Positions 25,178 through 28,086 of a stretch of 35,888 nucleotides of DNA are shown in pieces. A program made the position numbers and the translations under genes. The notes below the pieces were generated by a model. That model searched no databases. It had not been told where the DNA came from and was given only the letters and a program-made list of their open reading frames with translations. The stretch lies in the NCBI GenBank assembly GCA_964477585.1, contig CAYZHU010000001.1, positions 7,086-42,973 of the forward strand, read 5' to 3'. The DNA comes from an uncultured bacterium (lineage in GTDB: Bacteria > Chlamydiota > Chlamydiia > Chlamydiales > SM23-39). Each line of letters begins with the position of its first letter. Positions within the stretch are counted from its first letter, which is position 1.

Positions 25178-28086
25178 TCAGGGACACTCATCGTTATCTC
25201 TTATTGTAATACTTACCGCATCACCGATCAGTCCAAAGGAATTCACCGCCTGAACAAAATAAACATCAGTATTCTTGTTTCTATTATGATCTTTATACTC
25301 TAGGCTTGTGGAAGGAACAAAAGCAATCTGTGTTCCATTGCGAAAAATTTGATAACCTGTGATACAGGAACTCGAACTAGCTGTCCATGATATAACGTGG
25401 ATATGATCTGTCTGCGTCAGAAATTTATTTTTTTTCGTGCAGCCGAAAATGTTTACCGGAGGCAATGGAATAGGCAGGAGTGAAAAATTAACAAATGTTG
25501 TTTGACTACTCATAACGGTAGCAGGAGAGCTCCCAAAGACATAATGGTTCTTTCTTGCTGTTACTGTATAACTGCCAGCTGCAATGGTATCTATGGAATA
25601 ATTTCCATTTGCATCTGTTAAACTAAAACCAACTACTGAGGACCCATCCGTTACCAAGATAAATGCGCCTGGGACCGGGCCGCCTGTACATTCATCTGTC
25701 ACTTCTCCTGCAATGGTCCCAGGAGTGGAATCAAGTGCGAAATTAGCAACCGTTGTTGCGCCGGCCATAACAGTCTCTGTCGAAAATGCTGACTCAAAAC
25801 CCTGGGCGATAGCAAGGACGGTATAATTACCTGGGGCTAAATTAGATATGGTGTAAGTTCCATTGACATCGGTTAAAGCAAAATCAATTAAAACGCTTCC
25901 TTGAAAGACAGCTACAGTAGCATCTGGAATGGGATCTGTAGTTATGGCGTCCGTTACTGTACCAGAAATAGCTCCTGGATTATCGGTTAAAGTAAAATCT
26001 ACAATGGTAGTCTGATTAGAAACGACTGTAGCATTTGTTGTCTGACTTTGAAAATCCGAGGCTATGACAGTCACTGTATAAGTATCAGGCTCTAAGTCAG
26101 GGATATTATAATTGCCGCTTGGATCAGTGATTGCCGTAGCAATTATAACAAATTCATTACGCACTTCAATCGTTGCGCCAGGGATAGGAGTTGGCCCAGC
26201 AGTAGAGACGTTACCGGAGATCATTCCAGGGCTCACTGCTAAAGCAAAATTAACAATTGTTGTATTACTAGTAGTAACGGTGGCTCCAACGGCAGAGTTG
26301 TCAAAATTCGGGGCGCTTGCAATAACAATATAATTTCCGGGAGCCAAATCATTGATCGAATAATTACCATTTGCATCTGTTAAAGCAGTGCCTATAAGGG
26401 TGAAATTGGAAAGAACCAAAATGGTAGCTCCAGGAATTGGAGCCGCATTAGTTTCATTTGTTACAGTACCTGAAATTGTTCCCGGGTTAAGTTGCAAAGC
26501 AAAGTCGACAGTTGTCGTCATATTTCCGACTACACTTGCGCCTTGAGCTGCAGCTTGATAAATGGTTCCGGTTCGAGCAATAACAGTGTATTGGCCGGGC
26601 ATTAAATCAGGAATTGAATATTGGCCATTTACATCGGTCAATGCTTTTGCAATAAAGGTTCGGCCGCTAAATACAGACACAGTAGCTCCCTCGATAGGAT
26701 CCGTCGTTATGGCATCTGTCACTGTTCCTGAAATCGTTCCTGGAGGTGTTAAGAGAGCAAAATTTACGACAGTTGTGGCGCCAGCCGTTACGGTGGCTCC
26801 TACGAACTGTGTTTGAAAAGTGTCTTTGGATGCAGTGACTATGTAATTACCTGGGGAAAGATTTGGAATTTCATAATTGCCATTGGGATCGGTTAAAGCT
26901 GTAGCAAGCACTAATTGATCACTGTAAACATTGATAATTGCTCCCGCGATGGGATTTGTCGATACGGCATTTGTCACTGTGCCTGAAATTGTTCCTGGAG
27001 GAGCCATGAGAGCAAAGTCAATAGTAGTCGTTGCATTTGCCGCAACAGTTGCTGCCTTAATTTGTTGTTGAAACAGATTTGCAGTTGCACGGACTAAATA
27101 GTCGCCTGGAACAAATTCTGAAAGGCTGTACTGCCCATTTGGATCCGTTAAGATCGATGCGATGAGGGTGACGTCTTGAAAAACATCTATGGAAGCGCCA
27201 GAAATAGGATTGCCTGTGGAGACATCCGTTACAGTGCCTGCAATTGTCCCTGGCGGGGTTTCTAAAGCAAAGTCTACTGTTGTTGTGGCACCGCCTGTAA
27301 CGCTAGCTCCCACATTTTTTGTCTGGTATCCATCCGCACTAGCCTCAACAGTGTAACTACCTGGAGCTAAATCTGGAATCGTATAAACTCCACTGCCGTT
27401 AGTATCTGCAAAGCCAACCAATAGAGACCCATTAAAAACCTGAACTAGAGCTCCTACTATTGGATTGGTGGTTAATGCGTCTATTACAGTCCCGGAAATT
27501 GTGCCTGGATTCGATGCCAATGCAAAATCAACTGTTGTGATAACGCCTGCCTGGACGGCAGCGCCCTGGGATTGTGTCTGATATCCAGTAGCTGTAGCGT
27601 TTACATTATAAATACCCGGAGCAAGATTAGGCGCTGAATAGGCTCCGGCGCCGTCAGTAGTCGCAGTCGTGATTAAAGTGAAGGTGTGAAAGATCTCTAC
27701 GGTTGCCCCGAAATGGGTAGAGTAGTTACTGCGTCAGTTACAGTTCCAGATATCGTCCCGCCGTTTGGCACTAATGCAATATCAACAACGTTCGTCGTAC
27801 CATTAGTTATCCTAGCCCCTACTGCTTCTGTTTGATAACCAGACTCGCTGGCGATGATTGTAAAGTTGCCTTGGTTGAGATTAGAGAATACATAAGTTCC
27901 ATCCATCCCTGTTGTGGTGGTTTGTCTTTGCTGATTTCCTTTGGTTGCAACGACCAAGGCTCCTGAAATCGGGAGGCCTGTCAGCGAATCTGTGACAGTG
28001 CCAGCGAAGTTTCCGGAGGCATTTACATATTGAGGCGTGAAGCAAGCGCATAAAAAAAATAGTGCAAGACAAAAAAATCTGTTCAT
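25178..28086 (-). pseudogene. frameshifted adhesin-like surface protein: signal peptide + 10 Ig-like (CarboxypepD_reg/Cna-B-like) repeats + FN3-like C-terminal domain
   Basis: Listed ORFs 27697..28086 (129 aa, carrying the signal peptide) and 25178..27520 (780 aa, no ATG start) are parts of one gene. The 'gap' 27521-27696 translates as a complete extra repeat in the downstream frame. One extra C:G in the CCCC run at 27706-27709 gives a single 969-codon ORF. Confidence 0.8.
25472..28014 (-). repeat. 10 tandem coding repeats of about 255 bp (about 85 aa), diverged
   Basis: Each unit reads (P)PGTISGTVTDaiTtdPI.GAtv.Vf....lia.alTD.nG.Y.ip.LaPGnYtV.a.a..fq.....atV.ag.tT.vnFaL. Units are clearly related at protein level but diverged at DNA level. 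Confidence 0.85.

What the first reader, a model, noticed from the sequence alone, without database searches (positions are those of the whole stretch)
27697..27736. One-base frameshift in a C4 homopolymer splits a 969-codon surface-repeat gene
Seen: the 129-aa ORF (28086 to 27697) holds the only start codon and signal peptide and stops at TAG 27697-27699. The 176 nt up to the listed 780-aa ORF are not intergenic. In that ORF's frame they read without stops from 27733 as ...GATVEIFHTFTLITTATTDGAGAYSAPNLAPGIYNVNATATGYQTQSQGAAVQAGVITTVDFALASNPGTISG, a complete extra repeat unit. The two frames coexist only in 27700-27733. Alignment to sibling repeats (DAITTDPIEGATVSVF versus DAVTTLPISG|ATVEIF) places the shift at tcg-ggg-(g)ca, the CCCC run at 27706-27709. 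The downstream part has no ATG for more than 200 codons. Inference: this is a recent pseudogene, a homopolymer assembly error, or a slipped-strand ON/OFF (phase-variable) switch for a surface adhesin.
Basis: partly seen in the sequence, partly recalled or inferred. Interest (0 to 1): 0.7.

Follow-up and report, generated by a model that had tools for sequence, protein, structure and literature searches.

The report
Single-base frameshift breaking a chlamydial surface-repeat gene
One missing G in a short G-run splits an otherwise intact, conserved gene for a secreted ten-repeat protein of an environmental chlamydia-like bacterium; this is an ordinary young loss-of-function mutation or a consensus error, not a programmed switch.

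Summary
On the minus strand, a 129-codon ORF (28086-27697) carries the start codon and a signal-peptide-like N-terminus. It runs into the -1 frame, which is open from 27733 to 25178.

Adding one G to the GGGG run (plus-strand CCCC, 27706-27709) gives a 969-aa protein: signal peptide, ten CarboxypepD_reg repeats and a C-terminal FN3-like domain. This protein aligns end to end with intact orthologues of 969-1011 aa from Parachlamydiales/Chlamydiales MAGs.

Nine related loci cross the junction in one frame. Two of them read TCG GGG GCA (G5) where the window reads TCG GGG CA, so the lesion is a G5 to G4 contraction.

- No other lesion occurs in the 841 downstream codons.
- No other gene among about 31 in the window is split.
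- All 107 longer homopolymers inside ORFs are in frame.

A phase-variation switch is unlikely: the tract is 4-5 nt and is broken by synonymous GGC/GGA in orthologues. Programmed frameshifting is also unlikely: there is no slippery heptamer, no significant downstream structure, and the split is not conserved.

Real young mutation versus consensus error cannot be settled without reads. No same-species sequence was found. Interest is low.

The parts
27697..28086 (-). ORF1, 129 codons. It holds the ATG, a signal-peptide-like N-terminus (MNRFFCLALFFLCACFTPQYVNA|SG), the complete first CarboxypepD_reg repeat and the first 21 residues of repeat 2. It then reads Q-P-stop out of frame.
   Evidence: Pfam PF13620 covers residues 28-105. 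The N-terminus is conserved in orthologues.
27706..27709 (-). Frameshift site: GGGG on the coding strand (CCCC on the plus strand). One G is missing relative to the inferred ancestral TCG GGG GCA.
   Evidence: Orthologues L010 and L006 carry G5 at the homologous codons.
27697..27699 (-). Premature TAG stop, reached two codons after the shift.
27521..27696 (-). The 176 nt between the two listed ORFs. It is not intergenic: in the -1 frame it encodes most of repeat 2, whose first residues lie upstream of the premature TAG.
25178..27705 (-). The downstream 842 codons (including the stop), in the -1 frame relative to ORF1. It covers repeats 2-10 plus the C-terminal domain and has no further stop or indel.
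   Evidence: The 780-aa called product is P0002.
25181..25450 (-). C-terminal fibronectin-type-III-like domain of the repaired protein.
   Evidence: AlphaFold2 model with pLDDT 88.9 and seven strands. Top Foldseek PDB hits are FN3 modules with E from 2.5e-5.
24541..25149 (+). Convergent neighbour: a small outer-membrane beta-barrel protein (PF13505). It travels with the repeat gene in relatives.
   Evidence: tblastn synteny in L003, L010, L011, L004, L008 and L009.
28166..28238 (-). tRNA(CAT) immediately upstream of the gene.
24229..24302 (-). Second, nearly identical tRNA(CAT) on the far side of the two-gene module.

Best explanation
The locus is one gene for a secreted or surface protein. 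Its parts are a signal peptide, ten transthyretin-like CarboxypepD_reg repeats and a C-terminal FN3-like domain.

The ancestral G5 run (TCG GGG GCA, Ser-Gly-Ala at the start of repeat 2) has lost one G, most simply by replication slippage. Translation from the only start codon therefore ends at TAG after 129 codons. The product is at most a secreted one-domain stub. The remaining 842 codons have no start codon of their own (the first candidate is TTG 27520), no signal peptide, and are effectively silent.

The lesion is evolutionarily very young and is not programmed: it is a null allele in the sequenced population.

What is shown:
- The gene is a single ancestral ORF.
- The lesion is one base, at this site.
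- Nothing else in the gene is damaged.

What is inferred:
- That the G4 state exists in the cells rather than only in the consensus.
- That slippage caused it.
- That the N-terminus is a signal peptide.
For: - Inserting one G restores a 969-aa ORF with 10 PF13620 repeats.
- That protein aligns colinearly, end to end, with intact orthologues: P0007 at exactly 969 aa, P0008 at 976 aa, P0005 at 1011 aa.
- Nine related loci cross the junction in one frame.
- L010 reads CCC ATT TCG GGG GCA AGC GTA GAG ATC TTT against the window's CCC ATT TCG GGG-CA ACC GTA GAG ATC TTT. L006 also has G5.
- The repeat period drops from 255 to 254 nt only across this site.
- Identity to orthologues is as high after the lesion as before it: for P0005, 83.7% before, then 80.9%, 75.3% and 67.9% in successive segments.
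- The consensus looks indel-clean elsewhere. About 31 other ORFs give full-length Pfam matches or are unbroken. All 73 A/T runs of 6 or more and all 34 G/C runs of 5 or more inside ORFs are in frame, including A8 and T8 runs within this gene. A homopolymer-prone sequencing platform is therefore unlikely.
Against: - No reads, and no second assembly of the same species, could be found. The G4 state is seen once, in one MAG consensus.
- The complete lack of secondary decay is exactly what an artefact would also give.
- Close relatives come from low-coverage (6-10x) short-read co-assemblies. If the source is similar, a local consensus error is plausible.
Confidence: 0.52

Rival explanations
1. Assembly or consensus artefact. 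The organism has G5 and an intact 969-codon gene, and one G was dropped when the metagenome-assembled contig was built.
For: - The downstream 841 codons are flawless and as conserved as the upstream part.
- The source is an NCBI contig of 42,973 bp seen only once.
- The nearest relatives are metaSPAdes NODE contigs at 6-10x coverage from co-assemblies. In such assemblies isolated local errors occur.
Against: - No other split gene appears in about 34 kb of coding sequence.
- 107 longer homopolymers inside ORFs are all in frame. There is thus no sign of a systematic indel problem, and a 5-nt run is not a typical error site for short reads.
Confidence: 0.36
2. Slipped-strand ON/OFF (phase-variable) switch. 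The G4/G5 tract toggles expression of a surface adhesin at an elevated, selected rate.
For: - The lesion lies in a G run near the 5' end of a gene for an exported repeat protein, the usual location of such switches.
- Chlamydiaceae pmp genes carry poly-G tracts that are found frameshifted between sequencing efforts (PMC3323650).
- A C5/C6 between-strain difference is recorded in N. meningitidis NMB1760 (PMC5084427).
Against: - The tract is 4 nt now and 5 nt when ON. This is below the 7 or more G/C repeats used to define candidate loci (PMC5084427; PMC4965091).
- The window holds 148 G/C runs of exactly 4 nt and 34 longer ones, so this one is not special.
- The tract is not maintained in orthologues: TCG GGC, GCG GGA, GCA GGA and TCC GGG occur at the same codons.
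- All nine relatives are in frame.
Confidence: 0.07
3. Programmed -1 ribosomal frameshift or transcriptional slippage at U CGG GGC makes the full-length protein from the G4 template.
For: The required shift is -1, and tRNA-Gly on GGG could re-pair with the GGG one base back (sequence).
Against: - There is no X XXY YYZ heptamer.
- The stop is not adjacent to the run.
- The downstream 126 nt fold no better than shuffles (z = -1.39).
- Orthologues encode the junction in frame, so the two-frame layout is not conserved.
- A G4 run is far too short for efficient transcriptional slippage (established knowledge).
Confidence: 0.02

Closest known systems
Ordinary frameshift pseudogenes (young, strain-specific null alleles) in bacterial genomes
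   Same: A single-base indel in a short homopolymer breaks a gene that is intact in relatives. There is a premature stop soon after the shift and no other decay.
   Different: Here the allele is seen only in one MAG consensus. Its physical existence is therefore unverified.
Poly-G tract variation in Chlamydiaceae pmp (polymorphic membrane protein) genes
   Same: Same phylum, a surface-exposed repeat protein, and a frameshift at a G run. The same 'artefact or slippage?' question is raised in PMC3323650.
   Different: The pmp tracts are long poly-G runs in autotransporter genes. Here the run is 4-5 nt, the protein has no autotransporter domain (it has CarboxypepD_reg repeats plus FN3), and the tract is not conserved among orthologues.
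Simple-sequence contingency loci of Neisseria, Campylobacter and Haemophilus
   Same: An intragenic G/C homopolymer near the 5' end of a surface-protein gene, where plus or minus 1 nt switches the reading frame.
   Different: Defined loci have 7 or more G/C repeats and show tract-length polymorphism (PMC5084427, PMC4965091). This tract fails the length criterion, and polymorphism could not be tested.
CarboxypepD_reg / transthyretin-like repeat surface proteins (MSCRAMM-like SdrD-B repeats; Kustd1514-type S-layer glycoprotein)
   Same: Tandem beta-sandwich repeats of about 85 aa after a signal peptide. Pfam PF13620, PF13715, PF17210 and PF17802 hit all repeats. NCBIfam NF052345 matches repeat-wise.
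   Different: - The score is far below the NF052345 cut-off (332 against 1400 bits).
- There is no LPXTG or other recognised anchor.
- The family here is specific to Chlamydiales, ends in an FN3-like domain, and is paired with a small OMP beta-barrel gene.

Membership tests
Frameshift-disrupted gene (pseudogene or artefact) | Orthologues encode the two parts as one continuous ORF | tested here: met
   Nine intact orthologues align colinearly. Nine related loci cross the junction in one frame.
Frameshift-disrupted gene (pseudogene or artefact) | A single indel restores the full reading frame | tested here: met
   Adding one G at 27706-27709 gives 969 codons without a stop. The repeat spacing is 254 instead of 255 nt across the site.
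Frameshift-disrupted gene (pseudogene or artefact) | The lesion is present in the DNA of the organism (read support) | not testable with these tools
   The source contig is not indexed, and no reads or same-species sequences were found.
Old or decaying pseudogene | Additional stops, indels or relaxed conservation downstream | tested here: not met
   There is no stop in the 841 downstream codons. Identity to orthologues is similar before and after the lesion.
SSR contingency locus (phase variation) | Homopolymeric G/C tract of at least about 7 nt | tested here: not met
   The tract is 4 nt and the inferred ON state is 5 nt. The threshold comes from PMC5084427 and PMC4965091.
SSR contingency locus (phase variation) | Tract maintained in orthologues or strains, with length polymorphism | tested here: not met
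   Orthologues read GGG GCA (twice), GGC GCA, GGA GCA (twice) and TCC GGG GCA, and all are in frame. Within-population polymorphism could not be tested.
SSR contingency locus (phase variation) | Tract lies in the 5' coding part of a surface or secreted protein gene | tested here: met
   The tract sits at codon 127 of 969, after a signal-peptide-like N-terminus.
Programmed -1 ribosomal frameshift | Slippery heptamer X XXY YYZ in the 0 frame | tested here: not met
   The sequence is A UUU CGG GGC AAC in context, with 0-frame codons AUU UCG GGG CAA. There is no heptamer.
Programmed -1 ribosomal frameshift | Stimulatory downstream RNA structure | tested here: inconclusive
   The MFE is -27.9 kcal/mol and z = -1.39 against shuffles. 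14 of 200 shuffles fold as well.
Programmed -1 ribosomal frameshift | Two-frame arrangement conserved in relatives | tested here: not met
   All relatives are in frame.
CarboxypepD_reg repeat protein (Pfam PF13620) | Domain score above the gathering threshold | tested here: met
   519 bits against 32.3, in 10 stretches. ORF1 alone scores 64.3 bits.
Kustd1514-family S-layer glycoprotein (NF052345) | Whole-protein score above the NCBIfam cut-off | tested here: not met
   331.6 bits against a cut-off of 1400. The similarity is at repeat level only.

The most novel reading that the evidence does not exclude
The G4/G5 run is a low-rate but biologically used reversible switch. It would turn a Chlamydiales-specific adhesin-like protein off and on in natural populations of an environmental, amoeba-associated type of chlamydia, showing that very short tracts can serve as contingency loci outside classical pathogens.
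Probability: 0.06. Interest if true: 0.45.

Novelty: already known. Interest (0 to 1): 0.13.

Why it matters
The main value is for annotation. The 129-aa and 780-aa calls should be merged and flagged as one frameshifted gene, and the 176-nt 'gap' is not regulatory DNA.

If the allele is real, this lineage has just lost a conserved, exported ten-repeat protein that most of its relatives keep. That is a small datum on surface-protein turnover in environmental Chlamydiales.

The result does not open a new mechanism. The features expected of a programmed switch or of recoding were tested and are absent.

Tried and rejected
1. Exact look-ups of ORF1, of the 780-aa product P0002 and of two neighbouring proteins found nothing on record. 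The source record, its coverage and its platform therefore stay unknown.
2. A cluster look-up gave no accession or name.
3. The first genome-contig scan with the repaired protein found no relative, so the source genome is not among the GTDB representatives. The second scan, with alignment A1, gave the relatives used here.
4. A metagenome scan for the junction with a variable G tract gave 0 hits. A protein-guided metagenome scan also gave 0 hits. No same-species allele is available.
5. A second protein search with the N-terminal 201 aa found no near-identical fragment crossing the junction.
6. A literature search for SRP200132 returned nothing.
7. Mis-assembly through repeat collapse was considered and rejected. 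The repeat units are only 60-87% identical over 31-82 nt, with no long exact repeats.
8. Independent expression of the downstream part was considered and rejected. The frame has no ATG, GTG or TTG before 27520, no signal peptide, and no convincing promoter.
9. dN/dS before and after the lesion was not attempted. The nearest orthologue is only 74% identical in protein, so synonymous sites are saturated and the terminal branch has no power for a young event.

Full report
**Observation**

The minus strand around the finding reads ...CTA CCC ATT TCG GGG CAA CCG TAG AGA TCT TTC....

- ORF1 is 129 codons (28086-27697). It starts with ATG and ends at TAG 27697-27699.
- The frame one base back (-1) is open from 27733 to the stop at 25178. 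Upstream of the listed TTG start at 27520 it reads ...GATVEIFHTFTLITTATTDGAGAYSAPNLAPGIYNVNATATGYQTQSQGAAVQAGVITTVDFALASNPGTISG.
- The GGGG run occupies 27709-27706, which is CCCC on the plus strand.
- Inserting one G gives a 969-codon ORF without stops.

That includes the absence of an ATG for more than 200 codons: the first Met is about 234 codons after the junction.

**Why this is not chance**

- The repaired protein has ten CarboxypepD_reg repeats (PF13620, 519 bits, ten stretches).
- At DNA level the repeat units recur every 252-258 nt, always a multiple of three. The only exceptions are the step that crosses the lesion (254 nt, 27478 to 27732) and the corresponding step in a second repeat family (509 instead of 510).
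- This is an internal signature of a single missing base, and it does not depend on any orthologue.

**What the gene is**

- A protein search found the 780-aa downstream product itself (P0002, 100% identity, one NCBI contig of 42,973 bp).
- It also found many full-length relatives: P0007 (969 aa, 71%), P0008 (976 aa), P0009 (982 aa), P0011 (979 aa), P0005 (1011 aa, 74%), and 13-repeat versions of 1170-1240 aa.
- Nine of these align colinearly with the repaired protein from signal peptide to C-terminus at 52-74% identity. P124, I125 and G127 are invariant at the junction.
- Nearly all relatives start with the same hydrophobic N-terminus...FFCACF.PQ..NA|SG. The signal-peptide assignment is my inference from the sequence.
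- The last 90 or so residues fold as a seven-strand sandwich (AlphaFold2, pLDDT 88.9). Its best PDB neighbours are fibronectin type III modules.
- NCBIfam gives only a sub-threshold, repeat-level match to the Kustd1514 S-layer family.
- Relatives carry record titles naming Parachlamydiales, Chlamydiales and Chlamydiae MAGs.
- A small outer-membrane beta-barrel gene (24541-25149, PF13505) lies convergent to the repeat gene. It travels with the gene in at least six relatives, while the other neighbours do not.

**Where the base was lost**

- ORF1 agrees with orthologues through P-I-S-G, and the -1 frame agrees from A-T-V-E-I-F. The lesion therefore lies within TCGGGGCA.
- From the window alone, the missing base could be the wobble base of either the Ser or the Gly codon.
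- Orthologous DNA resolves this:

| Locus | Sequence at the junction |
|---|---|
| L010 | CCC ATT TCG GGG GCA AGC GTA GAG ATC TTT |
| L006 | CCC ATT GCG GGG GCA ... (G5 runs in both L010 and L006) |
| L004 | TCC GGG GCA |
| L003 | TCG GGC GCA |
| L005 | GCG GGA GCA |
| L013 | GCA GGA GCA |

- The window is TCG GGG-CA. The simplest history is a G5 to G4 contraction.
- All nine related loci (L003-L011 and L013) cross this point in one frame.

**Programmed or accidental**

Phase variation:
- It needs a hypermutable tract. Working definitions use 7 or more G/C repeats (PMC4965091; PMC5084427), and Chlamydiaceae pmp genes have long poly-G tracts (PMC3323650).
- Here the tract is 4 nt (5 when intact). 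It is one of 148 G/C runs of exactly 4 nt in the window.
- In orthologues it is interrupted by synonymous changes, so it is not being maintained as a tract.

Programmed -1 frameshifting:
- There is no X XXY YYZ heptamer.
- The downstream RNA folds no better than shuffles (z = -1.39).
- The two-frame layout is absent from every relative.

Independent expression of the downstream part:
- It has no start codon before TTG 27520, no signal peptide and no convincing promoter.

**Real mutation or consensus error**

This could not be settled.

- For an artefact: the downstream 841 codons are undamaged and as conserved as the upstream part. The allele is seen once, in one MAG. The closest relatives come from 6-10x short-read co-assemblies (Bin Chicken preprint found), although the source record itself could not be identified.
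- For a real allele: the rest of the window looks indel-clean. About 31 other ORFs are unbroken, with full-length Pfam matches where a family exists. All 73 A/T runs of 6 or more and all 34 G/C runs of 5 or more inside ORFs are in frame, including A8, T8 and T7 runs in this same gene. A platform or assembler that drops bases in homopolymers would be expected to fail at those first.
- Young, otherwise intact frameshift alleles are also the commonest kind of bacterial pseudogene (established knowledge).
- My estimates are roughly 0.52 for a real, very recent null allele, 0.36 for an artefact, 0.07 for functional switching and 0.02 for recoding.

**Consequence if real**

- Translation stops after 129 codons. 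The cell would export at most a single-repeat stub and would lack the nine further repeats and the FN3-like end.
- The lineage would have just lost a protein that its relatives conserve.
- No mechanism beyond replication slippage and loss of function is needed.

**Comparison with known systems, and novelty**

- This is an ordinary frameshift-disrupted gene. It resembles the pmp poly-G situation in Chlamydiaceae only superficially, in being a surface protein from the same phylum with a G run.
- It fails the defining tract-length and tract-conservation features of contingency loci.
- The protein family (a Chlamydiales-specific CarboxypepD_reg x N plus FN3 protein paired with a small OMP barrel) is uncharacterised but built from common modules.
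- Interest is low. The practical outcome is an annotation correction and a request for read-level verification.

**Dead ends**

- Exact-sequence look-ups for four window proteins found nothing.
- The cluster look-up gave no accession.
- The first genome-collection scan found no relative.
- Both metagenome scans found nothing.
- The N-terminal protein search found no near-identical fragment.
- The literature search for the study accession returned nothing.

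Noticed in passing
window 24229-24302 (-) and 28166-28238 (-): Two tRNA(CAT) genes in the same orientation bracket the 3.9-kb segment that holds only the repeat gene and the OMP beta-barrel gene. They are identical except for a 1-nt indel in the D-loop (AGTTGG against AGTGG). 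The repeat ends 2 nt past the tRNA. Both copies have AAATCCTTGCAT about 50 nt upstream. No tRNA lies next to the orthologues in eight related loci. This could be a tRNA duplication or the footprint of an insertion at a tRNA gene. Whether these are Met, fMet or Ile2 tRNAs was not determined.
   Followed up: partly
window 24541-25149 (+) with 25178-28086 (-); L003, L004, L008-L011: The repeat-protein gene and a small OMP_b-brl (PF13505) gene form a two-gene module that is conserved across Chlamydiales MAGs. The flanking genes here (P-type ATPase, MFS transporter) are not syntenic in relatives. The barrel may be the outer-membrane partner or anchor of the repeat protein; this is untested.
   Followed up: partly
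protein hits (P0001-P0066): The family occurs in discrete size classes of about 590-640, 700-720, 960-1010 and 1170-1240 aa, roughly 6, 7, 10 and 13 repeats. Most members have the same signal peptide, so repeat-number change rather than frameshifting looks like the usual mode of variation.
   Followed up: no
L001/L005 76-6053: In the closest relative (74% identity), the orthologue sits next to two large autotransporter (PF03797) genes. These are the Pmp-like class of chlamydial surface proteins.
   Followed up: no
window 30796-35887 (-): A FecR-like gene (30796-31659) and a ShlB/FhaC-type Omp85 transporter (31674-33371) lie next to an ORF of more than 850 aa that has no Pfam match and runs off the window end (33335-35887). 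This may be a two-partner-secretion-like pair with an unknown passenger.
   Followed up: no
window 6879-11673: A cytochrome bo3-type quinol oxidase cluster on the minus strand: COX2 9897-10829, COX1 7930-9900, COX3 7316-7933 and a probable small subunit IV within 6879-7316. A divergent UbiA/haem O synthase gene lies at 10822-11673. All appear intact. The listed 250-aa ORF 6879-7631 overlaps COX3 and is probably over-extended by the first-TTG rule.
   Followed up: partly
L007 10001-12142 (P0047, 589 aa): The family member in a long-read Parachlamydiales MAG is called from a Met inside the signal peptide (MAPQYLCAVG...). This suggests a mis-called start or an N-terminal lesion there.
   Followed up: no
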